This document shows, piece by piece, positions 3,660 through 59,137 of a stretch of 64,000 nt of DNA. Numbering within the stretch: position 1 is the stretch's first letter; every line of letters starts with the position of its first letter. This DNA comes from Escherichia phage mio. Location: the sequence record MN850631.1; one strand, 5' to 3'. A program made the translations under genes and the position numbers. Under the pieces are notes generated by a model. That model was not told the origin of the DNA. It saw only the letters and a program-made list of their open reading frames with translations, and did not search any database.

Positions 3660-5804
3660 TTACATAGAGACTCTATCACGAATCTCAGCAATTTTTGCAT
3701 CGTTCATTCGGGATTCGCCTTTAATCTTAGTCCATCCAAGATACCCGCACACCCTGTTAATCACAGAGATATCGTGTGAATGACAAACCTCACATTCTTC
3801 AACATCAGCCTTTGGCCTGTTACCACAATGTTCACAGATTGCTAAGTCAAAGTTAAGTCCCTGATAGAAACCTTTCAACATCCCTCTTGTAATACAACTT
3901 TTAAGTGCTGTTAAGTTTTCTGGGTTAGCTACCCTGACATACTGGATTCTCCCACCTCTACAGATATGGAAGAATGGCTCTTCTAAGTCCTGCTTCTCAA
4001 ATGGTGAGATGTCTGCTGCAACATTCATATGGAAACTGTTTGTAAAGTATTCCTTATCAGAAACACCTTTGATAACACCAAACATATCTCTGAACTGTTT
4101 TAGCTGAGTTCCGCAAAGTGATTCTGCTGGAGTACCATAGACGGCGTATAAGAAGCCATCTTCATTTTTAAACTCTTCAGTTTTCATGTTGATGTATGCC
4201 AGAACATCGTATGCAAAACTACAGCTTCCAACTTCATGAAGTCGTTTACCTTCAGCAAGAACAGATAGCTCATCGAGCGCAGTAACACCAAAAGAAGCTG
4301 TGAAGGACTTCACGATATCCCAGCCAACCTTGTCAGTAGGTTTCTTAGTTCCTTTGTACAGACCACCTTGTGTGAATGCAAGAGGGTTAGAACTTGCTGG
4401 CATATTAGCAATCATTTCGTAGCGTTTCTTGTGGAAGCTGCGAATCATCTCTAGGTACTTATCAAGCTCTTTCCAGAAATCTAAACCATTCTCTTTAGAA
4501 TACTGGTAAATCATCGGTAAGTTCAAAGATACAGCACCAATATTAGCACGACCAACGTAGAACTCTTCTCCATTCTCGTTAAGATATGGGGATAAGAAAG
4601 CTCTGCAACCCATCGGTGAAATTACCTTGCCAGAACGCTCAAAAGCCTCTGCTACAGCACCATGACCAGATACGCTTAAGAAATCTGGATACATTGCTTT
4701 AGAGCAACACTCAATAGCTTTACTGTACAGGTGACCTTGACAGATATTTTCATCATGTCTCTTCTGGTCGTAGATATAAACAAGTTTAGGGAATACAACA
4801 GGTTTTTTGCTCTTACCTTGTCCATTCATACGAACATCTAGGAGAGTACTTGCAATCATGTATTGTAGTCGGTTGTCTTCATTAGACATATCTGAGTCAA
4901 GTAAACCAAATGTTAAAGTTGTGAATGCAAAATCACCACGGCTGCAAGGTACAGTATTTAGCTTCATCTCTAGTGACTGGAAGCCTTGAGTTAATTCAAT
5001 CTGTAGCTGCTCCATGACATAGTTATGGTAATGTTCTTTAGGAATACCATAAGATGCTGCTTTCTCAGCATGATAGCGTAGAGACTTCTTAGCATACGGT
5101 ACGAGTACCTTGTCAATCTCTGCTAAAGTAAAGCCACCAAATTGCTGTGCAGTTGCTGAAAGAACTACGTCACCAATAACCTGTAAGGCCGACAGTACAG
5201 ATTTTGGTTCACAATATTCGATGCCAGACATTTCAAAGCCACCTTTCAGGACTTTACCAATGTCAAACAGGCAACAGTTGATACCACCAAAAATTAGGTC
5301 TCTTAAGTCATGGATGTAGATAAACCCTTTTTCAATGTCTTCAAGTTCCTCTGGTGTTAAATGGTACTGTTTAAAGATTTCTTTAGTCAGATAACCACGA
5401 ATAATTGAACCTTTTGTAGAAATTAAACTGCTGTCAAAGTTAGCATTTTCACGGTCACCTAAGAAGAGTGTGTCTTTAGTCTTTTGGTAAAGCTCATCCC
5501 AATTTTGAGCAACCTCTTTACGGTAATTTCTGTATGTTGAGTAAGACTCATAAATCTCGTGATTAACTTCTGCCAAAGCACCCTCAACAATACTGTGAAT
5601 ATCATTTACTGAAATGAGTAAATTATTCTGCTTAGTGGATTTTACCAGAATCCTCATAAATGCTGACTCAAGAGCTTGGGTAACATCTGGTGGAAGTTCT
5701 TTATATCCAACCCTGTTAGCTGATTTAGTTACTGCTGCTAAAACTTTTTTGATATCAGGTTCTTCAAGTGAGCCGTTCTTTTTAATAATCTGTACTTTGT
5801 TCAT
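3660..5804 (-). CDS. nrdD: anaerobic ribonucleoside-triphosphate reductase (class III, glycyl radical)
   Basis: 714 aa; C-terminal Zn/Cys cluster CEHCGN...CEVCHSHD followed by glycyl-radical motif RVCGYLG. Confidence 0.85.
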   Translation of the reverse strand: MNKVQIIKKNGSLEEPDIKKVLAAVTKSANRVGYKELPPDVTQALESAFMRILVKSTKQNNLLISVNDIHSIVEGALAEVNHEIYESYSTYRNYRKEVAQNWDELYQKTKDTLFLGDRENANFDSSLISTKGSIIRGYLTKEIFKQYHLTPEELEDIEKGFIYIHDLRDLIFGGINCCLFDIGKVLKGGFEMSGIEYCEPKSVLSALQVIGDVVLSATAQQFGGFTLAEIDKVLVPYAKKSLRYHAEKAASYGIPKEHYHNYVMEQLQIELTQGFQSLEMKLNTVPCSRGDFAFTTLTFGLLDSDMSNEDNRLQYMIASTLLDVRMNGQGKSKKPVVFPKLVYIYDQKRHDENICQGHLYSKAIECCSKAMYPDFLSVSGHGAVAEAFERSGKVISPMGCRAFLSPYLNENGEEFYVGRANIGAVSLNLPMIYQYSKENGLDFWKELDKYLEMIRSFHKKRYEMIANMPASSNPLAFTQGGLYKGTKKPTDKVGWDIVKSFTASFGVTALDELSVLAEGKRLHEVGSCSFAYDVLAYINMKTEEFKNEDGFLYAVYGTPAESLCGTQLKQFRDMFGVIKGVSDKEYFTNSFHMNVAADISPFEKQDLEEPFFHICRGGRIQYVRVANPENLTALKSCITRGMLKGFYQGLNFDLAICEHCGNRPKADVEECEVCHSHDISVINRVCGYLGWTKIKGESRMNDAKIAEIRDRVSM

Positions 5805-53175: not shown

Positions 53176-53251
53176 TGGGGTGACCTACGGGAGTCGAACC
53201 CGTATAGACCATGTTCACAGCATGGGTCATTGCCATTTATGATAAGGCCAC
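53176..53251 (-). tRNA. tRNA-His (anticodon GUG)
   Basis: 76 nt; anticodon stem CCATG/CATGG, loop CTGTGAA; T-loop GGTTCGACTCC; CCA encoded. Confidence 0.7.
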
Positions 53252-55341: not shown

Positions 55342-55689
55342 CTAATACTTTGCATGTCTTACCCTATGGCAATTTGAACATAGCAAAACACATTTGTCAA
55401 GTTCATCTTTTAGCTCTTGAGAGAACTTAAGGCTTTTCCTATGACCAATGTTAAAATCTTTATCTGAAGGATTCAAATGATGGAAGTCATACACTGCTGG
55501 ATGATACTTTTTACCACAATCATGACAAACCCCACCTTTGTACTCAATAGCTGAGAGTTTAAGTGCTCTTTGTCTTTCTATGGTTTGCTCATTAACACAC
55601 TTTTTACAGTATGAATGAGTTCTTCTACCATCTTTCATGTAGAAATCATTTTCATCCTTGCTAAGTTTGCACCTAATACAAGTTTTCAT
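55342..55689 (-). CDS. HNH homing endonuclease
   Basis: ORF 55342..55740 trimmed to ATG 55689 (upstream part overlaps a tRNA); CxxC ... HHLNP ... CSNCHRVRH HNH/zinc motif. Confidence 0.6.
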   Translation of the reverse strand: MKTCIRCKLSKDENDFYMKDGRRTHSYCKKCVNEQTIERQRALKLSAIEYKGGVCHDCGKKYHPAVYDFHHLNPSDKDFNIGHRKSLKFSQELKDELDKCVLLCSNCHRVRHAKY

Positions 55690-55703
55690 GATTTCTCCAA
55701 AAT

Positions 55704-55785
55704 TGGTCGAGGCGGCAGGACTCGAACCCGCATACTCCACTTACTCGGTTAACGGCGGTTTAGAAGACCGCTGAGATACGCCCCG
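55704..55785 (-). tRNA. tRNA-Arg-like (anticodon-type loop CTTCTAA = UCU), structurally anomalous
   Basis: 82 nt; T-arm GCGGG-TTCGAGT-CCTGC and acceptor CGGGGCG/CGCCTCG, but the UCU hairpin sits where the D-arm should be, followed by 23 unassigned nt. Confidence 0.35.
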
Positions 55786-56078
55786 TAATTATCTTTAAAG
55801 ACTCTCTTAGAAAGCCCTTAAAGATGCCCACCTTATTAATCATACCGTGGGCTAGTACGCCAAATTCTTTGATGAGGGATTGGAAGACCTCACTGGTGTT
55901 TAGCCTATCAAGCTACTGCCAGAAAAACATTGTCGTTTGCATTTATTTTAAATTTGCAAAATAGACGCTACGCAACGAAAACTATTCAGAATATGTACAA
56001 CAAATTTCCCCACATTGTGTTACGTCTAACGCTCATGTATTGGTGTTTGAATTATACATATTATGAAGTATTTTAGTT

Positions 56079-56107
56079 ACTATAAAGTGGTCACATCTCA
56101 ATGTCAA
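56079..56107 (-). promoter_or_regulatory. sigma70-like promoter driving minus-strand transcription into the tRNA array
   Basis: Minus-strand TTGACA (rc of 56102-56107), 17-nt spacer, TATAGT (rc of 56079-56084). Confidence 0.5.
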
Positions 56108-56122
56108 CAACTTTATTGAAAT

Positions 56123-56198
56123 TGGTACTGGTAGGTGGAATCGAACCACCGATATTCCCTTATCAGGGGAGTGTTATAACCTTCTTAACTATACCAGC
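56123..56198 (-). tRNA. tRNA-Ile (anticodon GAU)
   Basis: 76 nt; anticodon loop CTGATAA, T-arm GGTGG-TTCGATT-CCACC; CCA encoded. Confidence 0.65.
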
Positions 56199-56199
56199 T

Positions 56200-56276
56200 T
56201 GGAGGTTCAGATGGGAATCGAACCCACATTCATAGGGCTTATGAAACCCCTGCATTACCTTATCTGCGACTGAACC
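56200..56276 (-). tRNA. tRNA-Met (anticodon CAU; three G-C pairs in anticodon stem, initiator-like)
   Basis: 77 nt; anticodon stem GGGGT/GCCCT with loop TTCATAA; T-loop GGGTTCGATTCCC; CCA encoded. Confidence 0.55.
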
Positions 56277-56280
56277 ATAT

Positions 56281-56356
56281 TGGTAGAAGTGGAGGGATTC
56301 GAACCCATCGCCTGTCAGATTAAAAGTCTGCCGCATCACCATTCTGCTACACTTCC
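56281..56356 (-). tRNA. tRNA-Lys (anticodon UUU)
   Basis: 76 nt; anticodon loop CTTTTAA; scaffold nearly identical to the CUU Lys tRNA at 54602-54677. Confidence 0.6.
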
Positions 56357-56361
56357 ATTAA

Positions 56362-56504
56362 ATTATCTTTGTAGATAAGCTACCCAGACTTGCTTAAGGT
56401 CTGTAGCGATGTGCATTGTTGGGTTTAAATCTAGAATTTACCCTTTCACCCTTTGTGGTCGCATACTCACAGGTAAGCTTAATAACTTATCTACAAAGAT
56501 AATT
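56362..56504 (-). ncRNA. structured element with 19-bp perfect terminal inverted repeat (candidate ncRNA or mobile-element remnant)
   Basis: AATTATCTTTGTAGATAAG (56362-56380) and its exact reverse complement CTTATCTACAAAGATAATT (56486-56504) enclose about 105 nt with internal hairpins; no T-loop; strand unknown. Confidence 0.35.
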
Positions 56505-56505
56505 A

Positions 56506-56636
56506 CCAGACCGTTGTTTATCATCTTAAGTGCTACCATTACACCAACTCGACCTCTGCCGAGTGAAGGAATCGAACCTTCGCCTTTTCTTTACCGAGAA
56601 ATAGATTGTTTAAGCTTTGCTGTAAACGGTCTTCTG
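56506..56636 (-). ncRNA. circularly permuted tRNA-like element (candidate Y-RNA-like ncRNA or permuted tRNA gene)
   Basis: In minus-strand sense: variable-arm hairpin TTTCT-CGGTA-AGAAA, T-arm GAAGG-TTCGATT-CCTTC, acceptor-like hairpin ACTCGGC-AGAG-GTCGAGT, D-arm-like GTG-TAATGGTAG-CAC, then TTAAGAT pairing back to ATCT and an 8-bp outer helix AGACCGTT/AACGGTCT. Confidence 0.45.
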
Positions 56637-56810
56637 TAAATTTGTTGAGCCAGACCAAGTTTTAAATTTTTCAAAATTAAATTGGCTTGAAATTTTAAGT
56701 AACTTGCTGTATTTGGTCTTCTGCTCCTTTAAAGAATACTCGTAAGAACTCTTTAAGGGAGGGGCTAAATAGCCCTCTCAAAACATCATTTTGAAATACT
56801 TATTATAATT

Positions 56811-56888
56811 TGGCGGTTACGAAGGGACTCGAACCCTCATCATCTCCCGTGACAGGGGAGTATTTTAACCATATTAAACTACATAACC
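56811..56888 (-). tRNA. tRNA-Asp (anticodon GUC)
   Basis: 78 nt; anticodon stem CTCCC/GGGAG, loop CTGTCAC; T-loop GGGTTCGAGTCCC; CCA encoded. Confidence 0.65.
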
Positions 56889-56894
56889 TTCATT

Positions 56895-56982
56895 TGGTGT
56901 GCCGTGTAGGAGTCGAACCTACCGAGTCTCAATGACAAGGGATTTACAGTCCCCACCGCTACCATCTACGGGATAACGACAC
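56895..56982 (-). tRNA. tRNA-Tyr (anticodon GUA), type II
   Basis: 88 nt; anticodon loop CTGTAAA, long variable arm, T-arm GTAGG-TTCGACT-CCTAC; CCA encoded. Confidence 0.6.
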
Positions 56983-56991
56983 ATTTAAATT

Positions 56992-57068
56992 TGGCGGTTA
57001 GTCAGGGATTCGAACCCTGTGCCATTCGCTTAACAGGCGACCGCACATACCTTATGTGCTTCCTAACC
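56992..57068 (-). tRNA. tRNA-Asn (anticodon GUU)
   Basis: 77 nt; D-stem GCAC/GTGC, anticodon loop CTGTTAA, T-loop GGGTTCGAATCCC; CCA encoded. Confidence 0.65.
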
Positions 57069-57145
57069 TTAATACATTGCCAGACCGTGTTTTTTCTTTT
57101 ATCCGCAAAAAGTAGTTTGTTGCTGCATACAGTCTTCTGCAAAAT

Positions 57146-57222
57146 TGGAGGCGGGTGCAGGAGTCGAACCTGCCGATACCATGCTAATGAGACATGTGAG
57201 ACGCCCTTTCTCTATACCCGCA
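57146..57222 (-). tRNA. tRNA with CAU anticodon (Met or Ile2-type)
   Basis: 77 nt; anticodon stem CATGT/GCATG, loop CTCATTA; 1:72 mismatch in acceptor; T-arm GCAGG-TTCGACT-CCTGC. Confidence 0.5.
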
Positions 57223-57313
57223 ATTCTTAATGACCAGACCAAATCTCTTCTTTGTCCGATTTACCTTCAGATGAATAAGATTAAGTTTGCTGTAATTGGT
57301 CTTCTGTCAAAAC

Positions 57314-57391
57314 TGGCGTTCCAGAAGGGATTTGAACCCTCAGATATCCACTTTGAAAGAGTGGTGACTTTACCATTTTGTCTACTGGAAC
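57314..57391 (-). tRNA. tRNA-Glu (anticodon UUC)
   Basis: 78 nt; anticodon stem CCACT/AGTGG, loop CTTTCAA; T-loop GGGTTCAAATCCC; CCA encoded. Confidence 0.65.
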
Positions 57392-57398
57392 ATTAATT

Positions 57399-57476
57399 TG
57401 GTCTCTGTTGGAGGACTTGAACCTCCGGCCTTACCGCCCCAAACGGAACGCTCTACCAAGCTGAGCTAAACAGAGA
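57399..57476 (-). tRNA. tRNA-Pro (anticodon UGG)
   Basis: About 78 nt; canonical D-arm AGCTCAGCTTGGTAGAGC, anticodon loop TTTGGGG, T-arm GGAGG-TTCAAGT-CCTCC; CCA encoded. Confidence 0.7.
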
Positions 57477-57593
57477 TAAACTTTTCAAACTCTATGTAAC
57501 CACTTTAACATTATTTTTTAGTGATTGTCAAGAACTTTTTTAAAATATTTTTCAGTATCTTAGAAAAGCTCTCATTTCGTTTCTATGTAGAAC

Positions 57594-57622
57594 ATATTAA
57601 AGGGTATTAAACACATTGTCAA
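57594..57622 (-). promoter_or_regulatory. sigma70-like promoter at the head of the tRNA array
   Basis: Minus-strand TTGACA (rc of 57617-57622), 17-nt spacer, TAATAT (rc of 57594-57599); overlaps a 7-bp hairpin GGGTATT/AATACCC just downstream of the Rsr-like gene stop. Confidence 0.5.
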
Positions 57623-57640
57623 TACCCTTTTTAAAACTTT

Positions 57641-59056
57641 TTACCAGATATAACGGTCAATCATTACTGCTTTGAGCATTACGCTGATTGGGTCAAACTT
57701 CTCACCACCAAGCAGAGCTTTTAAAGTGGCTGGAGAGAAACCAGATACCATTGCTACACCGTTATCCTTAACAGACACTTCGCAAGTCCCATTACGGTTT
57801 GCTAAGTACCAGAATACCAGTTGTGGCATCTCATATCCAGATTTTTTGTACTTACTCTGAATTGCTTCAAAGTTTGTACGACCATTAGCTCCATCAACCT
57901 GATTGAACTCCATATCAGAGAAGATGATAAGCTTACTTGGCATATCTTTCTGAGTCAAGTTGTTTCTTTTACCTACCTCAAGAATGCGGTCAAAAGCTGC
58001 TTGTAAGTTAGTTGAGCCATATTCAACGTGTCGCATCACCTGACGATGACGGTTTTGTAAATCACCACTCAGTTCGATGAAGTGAGGGTTTGTTGAATAA
58101 ACCATTAACTCGTTCTTAAAGCAACCTGTATTGCGTTCTGCTACATACAATGCAAGTGATACACCAATATCAAGAGCAGTAATTGAACCAAAATTCACCC
58201 AAGACATTGAGCTTGAGACATCAGTCATACACAAGATGTTTTCACCCTCTGCCATCCAGTTTGGTAGTGCTTTCCACTGCTCATTAGCAACATCTGCATT
58301 ACCATGCTTAACAGATTTAATCACATCGTATGGGTAAACAGCACCAGCGTTAATCTTAGACTCACCCTTTGAGAGTGATTCGATGTAAGCTTTGTAACGT
58401 TCTCCATCTTTACGGTTAAAGAGCTTTTGGTAACGTGCAGCAGCGAGTGAAGGAATCTTGCTGTAGTCAATCTTACCAAACTCATTAGCAGAGATTTTTT
58501 GCTCAACCGTATCAGACAGTGCAGATAACAGTGTGCGGTACTCTTTCTCGCTTAAGTTTGCAAACTTACAGAAACGTTTTACAAACTGTTTGTGGCGTGG
58601 TTTTACTCGTGGCAGCCACTTAGCTGCTAAACCTGCTGTTGCAGGGTCTAGCAATGCTGCTTCTAAATGCTTGAAGGCATCTGTCTCAAAACGAGTACCT
58701 ACGAAGATTTTGAAGTCATCAAAACGACCAAGTTCTGCAATCTTATCCATAATGCGAAGAACCTGTGTAGGCTCTAAAACTTTATCTTCAATTGCTTGAA
58801 GCAAGACAGTTCTGAAGGCTTTACGCTCACCCATACCTTCTCGTACATCTCGCATATGCAGTAAAATACGAACTGCGACATCAACATCCTCACGCAAAGC
58901 TTTGTAGAACAGGTCTGGTAAGATTTCTACATTGCTACGGCTTGAACCAGCAGCTTTGTAAAAGTCTACAAGAGCAGACATTGATGAAGTATGGTTTACA
59001 GCACCATTTTCAGTTCGACCTGCATGAAGGTGCGCATGTTTAAATAATTCGCTCAT
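57641..59056 (-). CDS. Ro60/Rsr-like protein (TROVE-like N-terminal region + von Willebrand factor A domain)
   Basis: 471 aa; C-terminal vWA with MIDAS-type CMTDVSSSMSW plus IIFSDMEF, SKYKKS and GFSPATLKAL, which parallel segments I recall from the Ro60 vWA domain (DVSASM, IVFTDNE, REYRKK, GFDTGALDV); N-terminal 260 aa helical; memory-based comparison only. Confidence 0.5.
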   Translation of the reverse strand: MSELFKHAHLHAGRTENGAVNHTSSMSALVDFYKAAGSSRSNVEILPDLFYKALREDVDVAVRILLHMRDVREGMGERKAFRTVLLQAIEDKVLEPTQVLRIMDKIAELGRFDDFKIFVGTRFETDAFKHLEAALLDPATAGLAAKWLPRVKPRHKQFVKRFCKFANLSEKEYRTLLSALSDTVEQKISANEFGKIDYSKIPSLAAARYQKLFNRKDGERYKAYIESLSKGESKINAGAVYPYDVIKSVKHGNADVANEQWKALPNWMAEGENILCMTDVSSSMSWVNFGSITALDIGVSLALYVAERNTGCFKNELMVYSTNPHFIELSGDLQNRHRQVMRHVEYGSTNLQAAFDRILEVGKRNNLTQKDMPSKLIIFSDMEFNQVDGANGRTNFEAIQSKYKKSGYEMPQLVFWYLANRNGTCEVSVKDNGVAMVSGFSPATLKALLGGEKFDPISVMLKAVMIDRYIW

Positions 59057-59137
59057 ATTTTACTCTCTTCTCTCATCTGTTGTTTGATGTGACAGACTTT
59101 AGAGCAACTTTGTAGAGTCTGTCAACATCTTTTAAAA

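What the first reader, a model, noticed from the sequence alone, without database searches (positions are those of the whole stretch)
56506..56636. Circularly permuted tRNA-like element: candidate Y-RNA-like partner for the Rsr-like protein (or a permuted tRNA gene)
Read on the minus strand, all cloverleaf parts are present but in permuted order: variable-arm hairpin, T-arm GAAGG-TTCGATT-CCTTC, then the acceptor 3' strand ACTCGGC joined by a 4-nt loop AGAG to the matching acceptor 5' strand GTCGAGT, then a D-arm-like GTG-TAATGGTAG-CAC. The anticodon helix has no anticodon loop; it opens into an internal loop and an 8-bp outer helix AGACCGTT/AACGGTCT. A capped acceptor stem plus an anticodon stem replaced by a terminal helix is the topology I recall for YrlA-class bacterial Y RNAs, and the element lies about 1 kb downstream of the Rsr-like gene in the same transcription direction.
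Basis: partly seen in the sequence, partly recalled or inferred. Interest (0 to 1): 0.85.

Follow-up and report, generated by a model that had tools for sequence, protein, structure and literature searches.

The report
Phage tRNA-mimic Y RNA, new variant
An unannotated gap in a Felix-O1-like phage's tRNA cluster encodes a tRNA-shaped non-coding RNA plus three shorter sister RNAs, which look like the missing RNA partners of the phage's Ro60-like protein, a protein that a 2024 preprint reports to counter a bacterial defence system.

Summary
On the minus strand, 56503-56639 folds into a terminal bulged stem carrying a variable hairpin, a T arm, a 7-bp loop-capped acceptor stem and a D arm. The element is conserved and almost never annotated in about 245 Ounavirinae genomes. 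The acceptor stem covaries across three genera.

The upstream 471-aa protein is DUF2828/DUF7788 in Pfam but has a Ro60 fold. It is the orthologue of Bas63 gp130.

- The window holds four modules sharing CAGAAGAC-N4-WDCAGCAA. Only this one carries the tRNA-like insert.
- "Helix + UUACAGCAA" modules sit next to DUF2828 genes, on the gene strand, in phages of Proteobacteria, Firmicutes, Actinobacteria and Campylobacter.
- A covariance model built only from non-Ounavirinae members recovers the window element (84 bits, E 2e-16). It also recovers genuine YrlA RNAs beside true Ro60 genes.

The element is not a YrlA member as defined. It has no GNCGAA(N)G motif, different T and D stem sequences, and no Rfam RF02553 hit.

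Verdict: a YrlA-like Y RNA of a new subclass, partnered with a divergent Ro60 paralogue. Binding and expression are inferred, not shown. A permuted tRNA gene or a tRNA remnant is unlikely.

The parts
56503..56639 (-). Whole tRNA-like module (M4): lower stem, bulge, basal helix, UUACAGCAA motif, V hairpin, T arm, capped acceptor, D arm, linker, and the 3' strands of both stems
   Evidence: R1 scores it 148 bits. R2, an independent model, scores it 84 bits, E 2.4e-16.
56636..56639 (-). Lower stem 5' strand UUAC. It pairs with GUAA at 56503-56506. It is followed by a 5' AGA bulge (56633-56635), opposite a single G at 56507.
   Evidence: RNAfold. The same 4-bp stem covaries among the four window modules: UGAC/GUCA, UUGC/GCAA, GAGC/GCUC, UUAC/GUAA.
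56626..56632 (-). Basal helix 5' strand AGACCGU. It pairs with ACGGUCU at 56508-56514, and reaches 8 bp with U56625-A56515.
   Evidence: Across the family, all 7 pairs change on both sides and 97.7% of cells are paired.
56617..56625 (-). UUACAGCAA motif directly 3' of the basal helix. It is the family signature and the candidate protein-recognition site. UUAC corresponds to the YUAY motif of YrlA.
   Evidence: YUAY is described in Chen 2014 (PMC4201824).
56586..56601 (-). Variable-arm hairpin UUUCU-CGGUAA-AGAAA
   Evidence: RNAfold. Mooglevirus has a different hairpin, UUUCA-GGGUA-UGAGA, at the same place (read from the alignment).
56565..56581 (-). T arm GAAGG-UUCGAUU-CCUUC
   Evidence: Partial Rfam tRNA hit on model positions 43-63. 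RNAalifold. The pairs covary across the family.
56547..56564 (-). Acceptor-like 7-bp stem closed by the loop AGAG (ACUCGGC/GUCGAGU)
   Evidence: Three pairs carry compensatory changes within Ounavirinae. The sequence is entirely different but still paired in other phages.
56530..56544 (-). D arm GUGU-AAUGGUA-GCAC, preceded by UG (56545-56546) at the tRNA 8/9 positions
   Evidence: The D loop is identical to that of S. Typhimurium YrlA.
56515..56529 (-). A-rich unpaired linker between the D arm and the 3' strand of the basal helix. It takes the place of an anticodon stem.
   Evidence: Left unpaired in the MFE, centroid and RNAalifold structures.
56647..56726 (-). Short module M3: the same stem and AUACAGCAA motif, with no tRNA-like insert, in tandem with M4
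   Evidence: Direct repeat D1. Pattern match. Fold. Conserved in Suspvirus and Mooglevirus.
57077..57142 (-). Short module M2, between tRNA-Met and tRNA-Asn
   Evidence: Present in Bas63.
57231..57309 (-). Short module M1, between tRNA-Glu and tRNA-Met
   Evidence: Present in Bas63.
57641..59056 (-). Ro60-fold protein (Pfam DUF2828 + DUF7788, with a vWA domain carrying the MIDAS motif DVSSSM). It is the orthologue of Bas63 gp130 and the presumed protein partner.
56361..56504 (-). Long hairpin directly 3' of M4: a 22-bp stem enclosing about 100 nt, including a miniature module CUAC-AGACC-UUAAGCAA-GUCU-GG-GUAG at 56380-56406. It is possibly a fifth, degenerate module.
   Evidence: Inverted repeat I1. 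Compensatory changes in Suspvirus and Mooglevirus.
57502..57622 (-). Two sigma-70-like promoter matches with perfect TTGACA -35 boxes, between the protein gene and tRNA-Pro. They are candidate promoters for the tRNA and Y-like RNA cluster.
   Evidence: These are consensus matches only, and their number in the region is not above chance.

Best explanation
The element is a non-coding RNA of the Y RNA type, built like bacterial YrlA.

Its 5' and 3' ends pair into a bulged terminal stem: a 4-bp lower stem, an AGA/G internal loop, then a 7-8 bp helix. A conserved single-stranded UUACAGCAA follows directly. I infer that this basal module is the docking site for the Ro60-fold protein encoded 1 kb upstream.

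The distal part is a tRNA mimic without an anticodon arm: a V hairpin, a T arm, a loop-capped 7-bp acceptor stem and a D arm with G18G19, able to form the tRNA elbow. By analogy with YrlA and Yrn1, I infer three possible roles for this part. It may tether the Ro60-like ring to a tRNA-binding effector such as an exoribonuclease. It may act as a bait for such a factor. It may protect the RNA from degradation.

Three shorter paralogous modules in the same tRNA cluster carry the same basal module without the tRNA mimic, in the way YrlB relates to YrlA. All are probably transcribed with the tRNAs and cut out of the precursor.

Because the acceptor stem is 7 bp long, RNase P may cleave in its loop, as happens in M. 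smegmatis YrlA.

Shown here: the structure, covariation, family-wide linkage to the gene, and the protein's fold. Inferred: expression, processing, binding and the effector.
For: - Structure and covariation.
- Four window modules share CAGAAGAC-N4-WDCAGCAA: 4 matches against 0.02 expected.
- The protein has a Ro60 fold. The AF2 model has pLDDT 88.6, and the top 12 PDB hits are all Ro60/TROVE, including Rsr and the Thermus phage Ro60.
- Gene linkage in 65 diverse DUF2828 loci. There are 56 helix+CAGCAA modules on the gene strand within 1 kb, in 41 loci (0.44 per kb). The opposite strand has 0.03 per kb and more distant sequence 0.04 per kb.
- The same tandem modules lie beside the gene in cultured phages of Listeria, Mycobacterium, Campylobacter, Staphylococcus and Enterococcus. 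They are absent near the gene in six true TROVE-Ro60 loci.
- Mycobacteriophage LilDestine has a short-long-short array beside its gene, and the long module is tRNA-like.
- Reciprocal model R2 finds the window element at 84 bits. It also finds genuine YrlAs beside true Ro60 genes at 38-61 bits.
- One DUF2828-locus module scores 38 bits on Rfam YrlA, the same range as genuine actinophage YrlAs.
- The D loop is identical to that of S. Typhimurium YrlA, and the YUAY motif is present.
- Bas63 gp130 is 97.5% identical to the window protein and sits in the same locus. The PhageMaP preprint, PMC11482910, proposed that it has Y RNA partners among the tRNAs.
- For Listeria phage CKA15, PMC12282133 reports very abundant unannotated RNAs within 2 kb upstream of an Rsr-like gene, same strand. 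DUF2828 homologues occur in related Listeria phages. That the CKA15 gene belongs to this family is inferred, not checked.
Against: - There is no expression or binding data for this element.
- The single-sequence fold is not exceptional (z = -1.68).
- The YrlA Ro-binding motif GNCGAA(N)G is absent, and Rfam YrlA gives no hit even at E<=10.
- The Levitt 15:48 pair is not maintained. It is A15 with C48 in the window and A48 in some relatives (read).
- The D arm is joined to the basal helix by a 15-nt unpaired linker, not by a stacked anticodon-like stem as in the YrlA crystal structure.
- Bas63 gp130 alone, on a plasmid or inserted into T7, restores growth on the Ppl defence strain (PMC11482910). 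That activity therefore does not need the phage RNAs.
- One natural Felixounavirus (locus L015) has lost the 3' half of the element by recombination with tRNA-Lys, so the element is dispensable in at least one lineage.
- The alignments used for pair counts were fitted to the model.
Confidence: 0.72

Rival explanations
1. It is a cis-acting punctuation or processing element of the polycistronic tRNA transcript. The tRNA-like fold would recruit RNase P or RNase Z to cut the precursor, with no trans-acting role and no link to the Ro60-like protein.
For: - It lies inside a cluster of 24 tRNAs, all on one strand.
- Its 7-bp acceptor stem is the feature that made M. smegmatis YrlA an RNase P substrate (PMC4201824).
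- No terminator-like site lies within the cluster.
- gp130 works against Ppl without the RNAs.
Against: - The modules follow the DUF2828 gene, not the tRNAs. LilDestine and Staphylococcus phage S-CoN_Ph16 have tandem modules directly after the gene with no adjacent tRNA cluster.
- Most modules lack any tRNA-like part but keep the helix plus UUACAGCAA.
- Same-strand enrichment within 1 kb of the gene is more than 10-fold.
Confidence: 0.1
2. It is a free-standing tRNA decoy. The tRNA-shaped RNA would soak up a host tRNA-targeting defence nuclease or tRNA-modifying factor on its own, and its closeness to the Ro60-like gene would be incidental or only regulatory.
For: - Phage tRNA clusters are thought to counter tRNA-cleaving defences (cited in PMC11482910).
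- An intact elbow (T loop UUCGA, D loop GG) and a 7-bp acceptor are present.
- Several relatives encode NCCA right after the acceptor 3' strand.
Against: - There is no anticodon arm, which is the usual target of anticodon nucleases.
- The conserved basal stem and motif, shared with modules that have no tRNA-like part, are left unexplained.
- The family-wide linkage to one protein family is also left unexplained.
Confidence: 0.1
3. It is a circularly permuted tRNA gene. The transcript would be circularised or rejoined and then opened at the acceptor loop, giving a functional tRNA.
For: All the arms except the anticodon arm are present in permuted order. Some relatives carry NCCA after the acceptor 3' strand.
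Against: - There is no anticodon stem-loop. The segments that would have to form it are unpaired, A-rich linkers, and they end in an 8+4 bp bulged stem.
- ARAGORN does not call it, and Rfam tRNA matches only the T arm at 14.9 bits.
- The window loop AGAG has no CCA.
- Known permuted tRNA genes depend on the bulge-helix-bulge splicing endonuclease of archaea and eukaryotes. This rests on my own knowledge and was not tested here.
- Relatives lose the acceptor stem or the whole tRNA-like part while keeping the basal module.
Confidence: 0.03
4. It is a dead remnant of two neighbouring tRNA genes (the 3' half of one and the 5' half of the next), or an artefact of an overlapping small ORF on the plus strand (56409-56639, 76 aa; annotated in Bas63 as bas63_0137/0138).
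For: - Tandem tRNAs can mimic the T-acceptor-D order (noted in PMC4201824). They do score about 20 bits with R2.
- An ORF exists on the plus strand and is annotated in some records.
Against: - The two acceptor strands are complementary to each other and covary.
- The element scores 84 bits against about 20 for real tandem tRNAs.
- It is conserved in about 245 genomes.
- The variants are 123 to 132 nt long (123, 124, 126, 127, 128, 131, 132), so the indels would break any reading frame.
- The annotated ORFs differ in length between close relatives.
Confidence: 0.03

Closest known systems
YrlA (Y RNA-like A; Rfam RF02553), the tRNA-mimic Y RNA bound by bacterial Ro60/Rsr (Chen et al. 2014, PMC4201824; crystal structure 6CU1, bioRxiv 10.1101/312249)
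   Same: - The order of parts is the same: terminal stem from the 5' and 3' ends, YUAY, V region, T arm, loop-capped acceptor stem, a two-nucleotide U-purine joint (UG here, UA in S. Typhimurium YrlA), then D arm.
- The D loop AAUGGUA is identical to that of S. Typhimurium YrlA, and the T loop is UUCGA.
- It is encoded within 4 kb of a Ro60-fold protein, on the same strand.
- It is accompanied by shorter sister RNAs, as YrlB accompanies YrlA.
- Covariance models cross-detect the two.
   Different: - There is no GNCGAA(N)G Ro-binding motif. An extended UUACAGCAA follows the basal helix instead.
- The T stem is GAAGG/CCUUC and the D stem GUGU/GCAC, not the nearly invariant GCGGG/CCCGC and GCUC/GAGC of YrlA.
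- There is no RF02553 hit at E<=10.
- There is no Levitt pair.
- A 15-nt unpaired linker replaces the anticodon-like stem that stacks on the D arm.
- The partner protein is DUF2828/DUF7788, not TROVE, by sequence.
M. smegmatis YrlA (a YrlA variant with a 7-bp acceptor stem)
   Same: [quoted passage not shown] Chen et al. link that feature to RNase P cleavage in the loop and CCA addition, which yields two base-paired halves.
   Different: Cleavage is untested here. The window loop AGAG encodes no CCA, although Mooglevirus and several other family members have NCCA at that position.
Phage Y RNA-like RNAs next to genuine Ro60: mycobacteriophage, CcrColossus and phage G YrlAs (Chen 2014), and Thermus phage phiLo Yrl1/Yrl2 (PMC12135203)
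   Same: These are phage-encoded Ro60-type proteins with adjacent, same-strand Y-like RNAs, often in or beside tRNA clusters.
   Different: Those proteins are TROVE orthologues, 32-40% identical to human Ro60, and their RNAs carry the CGAA motif. The phiLo RNAs are not described as tRNA-like in the passages read. None of the 357 phage records that matched human Ro60 is from an enterobacterial phage.
Bas63 gp130, a Ro60-like counter-defence protein (PhageMaP preprint, PMC11482910)
   Same: It is the orthologue, 97.5% identical, in the same locus directly upstream of the tRNA cluster. The authors proposed that it uses Y RNAs.
   Different: They guessed that some annotated tRNA genes are the Y RNAs and named none. 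The candidates found here are unannotated elements in the gaps between tRNAs, and in Bas63 the tRNA-like one (M4) is overlapped by opposite-strand 'hypothetical protein' calls.
Circularly permuted tRNA genes (Cyanidioschyzon merolae and some archaea)
   Same: The 3' half comes before the 5' half, with the acceptor strands joined by a short intervening sequence.
   Different: Those genes encode a complete anticodon arm and are matured into real tRNAs through a circular intermediate. This element has no anticodon arm and no such pathway is known in bacteria. This comparison rests on my own knowledge.

Membership tests
YrlA (Chen et al. 2014; Rfam RF02553) | T stem-loop with a tRNA-type T loop | tested here: met
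   GAAGG-UUCGAUU-CCUUC at 56565-56581. The Rfam tRNA model matches positions 43-63. RNAalifold predicts it.
YrlA (Chen et al. 2014; Rfam RF02553) | D stem-loop with the conserved GG, following the acceptor hairpin after a two-nucleotide joint (UA in YrlA) | tested here: met
   UG + GUGU-AAUGGUA-GCAC. The loop is identical to S. Typhimurium YrlA. Mooglevirus variants have UA at the joint.
YrlA (Chen et al. 2014; Rfam RF02553) | [quoted passage not shown] | tested here: met
   A 7-bp stem with three covarying pairs in Ounavirinae, and 93.8% paired across the family.
YrlA (Chen et al. 2014; Rfam RF02553) | Conserved YUAY at the start of the V region | tested here: met
   UUAC at 56622-56625, invariant in the 12 aligned M4 variants. 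Genuine actinophage YrlAs have GG-UUAC or GG-UUAU at the same place.
YrlA (Chen et al. 2014; Rfam RF02553) | GNCGAA(N0-1)G motif near the 5' end, the proposed Rsr-binding site | tested here: not met
   Absent from 56490-56660 and from M1-M3. It is present in Cali YrlA and its neighbour as GGCCGAGAG and GGCCGAAGG.
YrlA (Chen et al. 2014; Rfam RF02553) | Nearly invariant T and D stem sequences (GCGGG/CCCGC and GCUC/GAGC) | tested here: not met
   The window has GAAGG/CCUUC and GUGU/GCAC. The Rfam consensus is shown.
YrlA (Chen et al. 2014; Rfam RF02553) | Match to the curated covariance model RF02553 (gathering score 69 bits) | tested here: not met
   No hit at E<=10 in the 451-nt or 161-nt searches. 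Genuine phage YrlAs also fall below the gathering score, at 27-39 bits.
YrlA (Chen et al. 2014; Rfam RF02553) | Levitt-type 15:48 pair (G:C or A:U) | tested here: not met
   A15 (56539) faces C48 (56582). Position 48 is A in L007, SUSP1 and the Moogle type.
YrlA (Chen et al. 2014; Rfam RF02553) | Encoded within 4 kb of a TROVE-domain Ro60 orthologue, on the same strand | tested here: inconclusive
   The distance (1 kb) and the strand are met. The protein has a Ro60 fold, but Pfam assigns DUF2828 + DUF7788, not TROVE. A profile search of PDB sequences gives Ro60 only at E 0.34.
YrlA (Chen et al. 2014; Rfam RF02553) | Bound by Ro60/Rsr in vivo, and modified by TruB and DusA | not testable with these tools
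   This needs immunoprecipitation and modification mapping.
Y RNA in the broad sense (a Ro60-bound small RNA whose ends form a bulged stem) | The 5' and 3' ends pair into a stem interrupted by bulges, with a large distal loop or module | tested here: met
   A 4-bp lower stem, an AGA/G internal loop and a 7-8 bp helix in all four window modules. The helix covaries family-wide.
tRNA (including a permuted tRNA gene) | Anticodon stem-loop, and a free acceptor end with CCA or a site where CCA can be added | tested here: not met
   No anticodon arm appears in any fold. ARAGORN is negative and Rfam tRNA matches only in part. The acceptor is closed by AGAG.
Ro60/TROVE protein family (for the partner protein) | HEAT-repeat ring plus a vWA domain with a MIDAS motif | tested here: met
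   The AF2 model has pLDDT 88.6 and pTM 0.88. Foldseek's top 12 hits are all Ro60, TM 0.47-0.66. DVSSSM aligns with human DVSASM.
Ro60/TROVE protein family (for the partner protein) | Significant sequence match to the TROVE domain or to Ro60 orthologues | tested here: not met
   Pfam gives no TROVE hit. phmmer against PDB gives nothing. BLASTP against human Ro60 gives E 0.087 at best. None of the 357 phage records hit by human Ro60 is listed under an enterobacterial phage genus.

The most novel reading that the evidence does not exclude
DUF2828 proteins and the 'helix + UUACAGCAA' RNAs could together form a widespread, so far undescribed phage ribonucleoprotein system. DUF2828 homologues occur in at least 709 sequenced phage genomes across four bacterial phyla.

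In this reading, arrays of short adaptor RNAs and one tRNA-mimic RNA load a divergent Ro60 ring. The tRNA mimic may be opened by RNase P into a two-piece molecule with a CCA end; several members already encode NCCA in the acceptor loop. It would present a bait or tether for host tRNA-binding enzymes. The particle would then act in counter-defence or in tRNA and RNA quality control during infection.

Three observations fit this: the anti-Ppl phenotype of the Bas63 orthologue, the presence of an Rsr-like protein in Listeria phage virions, and an RtcB-like ligase 1.3 kb downstream of the DUF2828 gene in Listeria phage LP-124.
Probability: 0.3. Interest if true: 0.85.

Novelty: new variant of a known kind. 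Interest (0 to 1): 0.68.

Why it matters
Ro60 and Y RNAs are an old puzzle, and bacterial and phage systems are where their mechanism can be worked out.

- **Concrete RNA candidates.** Bas63 gp130 has a reported counter-defence phenotype in a genetically tractable E. coli phage. The preprint's authors could only guess that some tRNA genes were its RNAs. This finding names specific candidates, with coordinates.
- **A testable recognition signature.** UUACAGCAA after a covarying helix tracks the DUF2828 branch of the Ro60 fold. GNCGAA tracks the TROVE branch. That is a protein-RNA co-variation that can be tested directly.
- **Reach and annotation.** The signature extends tRNA-mimic Y RNAs to phages of enterobacteria, Listeria, Staphylococcus, Campylobacter, Enterococcus, Vibrio and mycobacteria. 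It also flags opposite-strand 'hypothetical protein' calls in Bas63, and possibly in other phage records, as likely spurious.

Tried and rejected
- **Rfam on the whole window and on the element**. Only tRNAs and a partial T-arm match came back. At first this looked as if Rfam had no YrlA family. Scanning true Ro60 loci showed that RF02553 exists and simply does not match this element.
- **Single-sequence AF2** gave a useless model, pLDDT 45. It was redone with a 44-sequence alignment.
- **Sequence searches of the protein** against PDB and NCBIfam found nothing useful.
- **BLASTN of the S. Typhimurium YrlA core** against E. coli genomes found nothing, and against phages it found only tRNA-like fragments. 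It did not locate YrlA loci.
- **A conserved anticodon-like stem** between the V region and the D arm. CUUAA/UUAAG pairs only in Felixounavirus. Alternative AU-rich pairings in other genera are no better than chance, so I do not claim this stem.
- **A generic 'CAGCAA + 7-bp helix' scan of the window** has a background of about 5.5 hits per shuffle.
- **The three abundant RNAs of Listeria phage CKA15.** I could not verify that they coincide with the three modules found in the related phage LP-124. Figures and coordinates are not held, so this stays a lead.
- The literature searches found no description of a DUF2828-associated RNA.
Full report
**Context.** The window is from a Felix-O1-like myovirus (Felixounavirus). 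Bases 56000-59100 are 97% identical to Salmonella phage SapYZU01 and UAB_Phi87, and match 300 phage records. The finding lies in a 455-nt gap between tRNA-Asp (56811-56888) and tRNA-Lys (56281-56356), inside a run of 24 minus-strand tRNA genes. A 471-aa ORF, 57641-59056(-), lies immediately upstream of the cluster.

**The observation.**
- V hairpin UUUCU-CGGUAA-AGAAA (56586-56601).
- T arm GAAGG-UUCGAUU-CCUUC (56565-56581).
- Acceptor 3' strand ACUCGGC, joined by AGAG to GUCGAGU (56547-56564).
- UG, then the D arm GUGU-AAUGGUA-GCAC (56530-56544).
- A 15-nt linker, then the outer helix AGACCGUU/AACGGUCU.

RNAfold predicts all of these and adds a 4-bp lower stem, UUAC/GUAA, separated from the outer helix by an AGA/G internal loop. 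The single-sequence energy is unremarkable (z = -1.68). ARAGORN does not call the element, and Rfam finds only a partial tRNA T-arm match of 14.9 bits.

**Conservation and covariation.**
- The element is present in about 245 Ounavirinae records at 83-99% identity. In most of the rows shown, no feature is annotated under it.
- Twelve distinct variants from Felixounavirus, Suspvirus and Mooglevirus were aligned.
- The T arm, the D arm, the basal helix and CAGAAGACCGUUUACAGCAA are nearly invariant.
- The acceptor hairpin has three unrelated sequences that all pair: ACUCGGC/GUCGAGU, ACACGU/GCGUGU around a UACG loop, and ACCCUUC/GAAGGGU.
- RNAalifold returns the four helices, with three pairs changed on both sides.
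- The variants are 123, 124, 126, 127, 128, 131 and 132 nt long. This rules out a conserved reading frame on either strand, including the plus-strand 76-aa ORF at 56409-56639.

**The protein.**
- Pfam assigns DUF2828 + DUF7788. PHROGs calls it an 'RNA-binding protein'.
- Sequence searches of PDB are negative.
- With a 44-sequence alignment, AlphaFold2 gives pLDDT 88.6 and pTM 0.88.
- Foldseek's 12 best PDB hits are all Ro60/TROVE. They include Xenopus Ro60, D. radiodurans Rsr, human Ro60 cryo-EM structures and the Thermus phage phiLo Ro60, at E 3e-8 to 1e-6 and TM 0.47-0.66. Isolated vWA domains follow.
- The MIDAS segment DVSSSM aligns with human DVSASM.
- The protein is 97.5% identical to bas63_0130 of phage JohannRWettstein (Bas63), in the same position before the tRNA cluster.
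- The PhageMaP preprint (PMC11482910) reports that gp130 resembles Ro60 structurally and counters the Ppl defence system. [quoted passage not shown]
- The same preprint shows that gp130 alone rescues T7 on the Ppl strain.

- The pattern CAGAAGAC-N4-WDCAGCAA occurs four times in the window, all on the minus strand inside the tRNA cluster, against 0.02 expected.
- Each module folds into the same base: a 4-bp lower stem that covaries between copies (UGAC/GUCA, UUGC/GCAA, GAGC/GCUC, UUAC/GUAA), an AGA/G internal loop, the helix AGACNNN/NNNGUCU, and then [UA]U[AG]CAGCAA opening an A-rich loop.
- M1 (57231-57309), M2 (57077-57142) and M3 (56647-56726) are 65-80 nt and have no tRNA-like part.
- M4, the finding, carries the V-T-acceptor-D insert in its loop.
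- A fifth, miniature copy, CUAC-AGACC-UUAAGCAA-GUCU-GG-GUAG (56380-56406), sits inside a 22-bp-stem hairpin directly downstream (56361-56504). Both covary in Suspvirus and Mooglevirus.

**The family beyond Ounavirinae.**
- The protein has more than 2000 homologues in the metagenomic protein set and matches 709 phage records.
- I fetched 65 viral loci whose proteins are 38-46% identical to the query.
- Model R1, built from the Ounavirinae alignment, found full-length tRNA-like modules there on the gene strand, with compensated helices. They include L024 5374-5510 (60.8 bits) and L067 7575-7707 (56.7 bits), with further hits in L080, L042, L030 and L025.
- R1 also found many 55-70 nt short modules directly after or before the gene.
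- A simple scan for a 7-bp helix followed by N[UA]NCAGCAA found 56 modules on the gene strand within 1 kb of the gene, in 41 of 65 loci (0.44 per kb). The opposite strand had 0.03 per kb and more distant sequence 0.04 per kb.
- In cultured phages, the modules lie beside the gene on the gene strand as follows:

| Phage | Modules beside the DUF2828 gene |
|---|---|
| Listeria LP-124 | three upstream |
| Mycobacterium LilDestine | short, tRNA-like, short, then a terminator |
| Campylobacter F357 | two upstream |
| Staphylococcus S-CoN_Ph16 | three downstream |
| Enterococcus EF5 | one upstream |

- Six loci with genuine TROVE Ro60 genes, located with human Ro60 as the tblastn query, have no such modules near the gene. 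The motif therefore follows the protein type, not the host.
- On 26 aligned members, 96.7% of cells are paired, against 38-44% when partners are slid. All 23 pairs show double-sided changes. That alignment was fitted to the model.

**Relation to YrlA.**
- Chen et al. 2014 define YrlA by a 5' GNCGAA(N)G motif, YUAY, a V region, nearly invariant T and D arms, a variable closed acceptor stem, and proximity to a TROVE gene.
- The S. Typhimurium YrlA core reads ...CUCUACA UUUGUU GCGGG-UUCGAGA-CCCGU CAGAGC-CCG-GCUCUG UA GCUC-AAUGGUA-GAGC.... It has the same order of parts and the same D loop as the window element.
- Rfam holds YrlA as RF02553. It hits genuine phage YrlAs at 27-39 bits and one DUF2828-locus module at 38 bits. 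It does not hit the window element, even in a 161-nt search at E<=10.
- R1 detects the T-acceptor-D core of genuine YrlAs.
- R2, built only from 11 non-Ounavirinae members, returns the window element as its best hit (84.0 bits, E 2.4e-16, exactly 56506-56636). It also returns genuine YrlAs beside true Ro60 genes at 38-61 bits. Tandem tRNAs score about 20 bits.
- Genuine actinophage YrlAs show GG-UUAC or GG-UUAU after their helix, and GGCCGA(A/G) further 5'.
- I conclude that the element belongs to a YrlA-like superfamily but to a distinct branch. It shares the tRNA-mimic core and YUAY. It lacks GNCGAA, the YrlA stem sequences and the Levitt pair. It has its own extended motif, UUACAGCAA, and a flexible linker in place of a stacked anticodon-like stem.

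**Mechanism (inferred).**
- The constant part of the family is the bulged terminal stem plus the single-stranded UUACAGCAA. Its strict linkage to one protein family makes it the likely docking site for the Ro60-like ring.
- The tRNA mimic is optional. It is present in one module per locus at most places, and absent in many loci. By analogy with YrlA and Yrn1, it is probably an effector-binding or protective module.
- Several relatives encode NCCA immediately after the acceptor 3' strand: Mooglevirus GCCA, L024 GCCA and CCCA, L080 GCCA, L042 ACCA, L067 GCCA. The genuine YrlA in L092 does so too.
- Sigma-70-like promoters with perfect TTGACA boxes lie before the protein gene and before tRNA-Pro. 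No terminator-like site interrupts the cluster. The modules are therefore probably processed out of the tRNA precursor.

**Caveats.**
- Nothing here shows expression or binding.
- gp130's anti-Ppl activity does not need the RNAs.
- One Felixounavirus (L015) has lost the acceptor, the D arm and the 3' strand through recombination between the element's T loop and that of tRNA-Lys(UUU).
- For Listeria phage CKA15, PMC12282133 reports an Rsr-like protein in virions and three very abundant unannotated RNAs within 2 kb upstream of its gene. I inferred from related Listeria phages that this protein is of the DUF2828 type; I did not check it.
- I could not verify that those RNAs are the modules I see in the related phage LP-124.

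**Verdict.** The element is best filed as a new variant of the YrlA/Y RNA kind, one member of a broad and apparently undescribed family of RNAs associated with DUF2828 proteins. It is neither a permuted tRNA gene nor a tRNA remnant.

Noticed in passing
window 56361-56504 (-), inner hairpin 56380-56406: A 22-bp inverted repeat encloses about 100 nt immediately 3' of the element. Its stem carries compensatory changes in Suspvirus and Mooglevirus. Inside it is a miniature copy of the module, CUAC-AGACC-UUAAGCAA-GUCU-GG-GUAG, whose helix also covaries (AGAC/GUCU to AAAC/GUUU).
   Followed up: partly
window 56724-56777 (-): Two conserved hairpins lie just upstream of module M3. One has 17-nt arms (82% complementary) around a 4-nt loop (56724-56761). 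The other is a GC-rich hairpin, GAGGGCU-AUUU-AGCCCCUC. They are nearly invariant across three genera and their function is unknown. They could be processing signals or an extension of M3's stem.
   Followed up: no
L015 8456-8620 (IMGVR_UViG_2706796742_000001): This is a natural deletion variant. The T loop of the tRNA-like element is fused to the T loop of tRNA-Lys(UUU). The fusion removes the acceptor hairpin, the D arm, the 3' basal strand, the downstream hairpin and the 5' part of tRNA-Lys. It looks like recombination between the shared GGUUCGA-UCC sequences.
   Followed up: yes
L006 and L018 (Mooglevirus); L024 5374-5510 and 5748-5882; L080 5115-5241; L042 7943-8067; L067 8435-8533; L092 1014-1070: Many family members, and at least one genuine YrlA, carry NCCA (GCCA, ACCA or CCCA) directly after the acceptor 3' strand, inside the capping loop. 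This fits an origin from tandem tRNA genes with encoded CCA. It also fits maturation into a two-piece RNA with a CCA end.
   Followed up: partly
L094 (Listeria phage LP-124) 1960-3960 and 6815-8026: Three tandem modules lie 75-340 nt upstream of the DUF2828 gene, and an RtcB-like RNA ligase lies 1.3 kb downstream. This echoes the rsr-yrlBA-rtcBA operon of Salmonella. Two strong TTGACA/TATAxT promoters precede long unannotated stretches at about 1963 and 2380. A paper on the related phage CKA15 reports very abundant unannotated RNAs in this area.
   Followed up: partly
L093 5030-5304 (Bas63 bas63_0137, bas63_0138); window + strand ORF 56409-56639: Small 'hypothetical protein' CDSs are annotated on the strand opposite the tRNA-like element (M4) and the hairpin downstream of it. 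Frame-breaking length differences between relatives suggest these calls are spurious.
   Followed up: partly
L024 3400-5900: A metagenomic phage carries an array of at least six modules upstream of its DUF2828 gene. They include forms with the full tRNA-like core, forms with T and D arms but no acceptor hairpin (4902-5013, 4315-4416), and short forms. The array looks like a graded series of insert loss.
   Followed up: partly
window 55707-55785 (-) and 53176-53251, 56895-56982, 57146-57222 (-): The two tRNA finders disagree. Rfam reports a weak tRNA (31.7 bits) at 55707-55785 that ARAGORN misses. Its position corresponds to the annotated tRNA-Arg of Bas63, and it overlaps the end of a weak HNH-like ORF (55342-55740). 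ARAGORN calls tRNA-His, tRNA-Tyr and one tRNA-Met that the Rfam gathering threshold misses.
   Followed up: no
L089 (Gordonia phage Boopy), L090 (Streptomyces phage Stigma): Genuine TROVE Ro60 genes of actinophages also sit directly beside large tRNA or tmRNA clusters. R2 finds unannotated YrlA-like elements in gaps between those tRNAs, for example L090 1933-2048 and 3139-3243. The gene layout is the same as in the window.
   Followed up: partly
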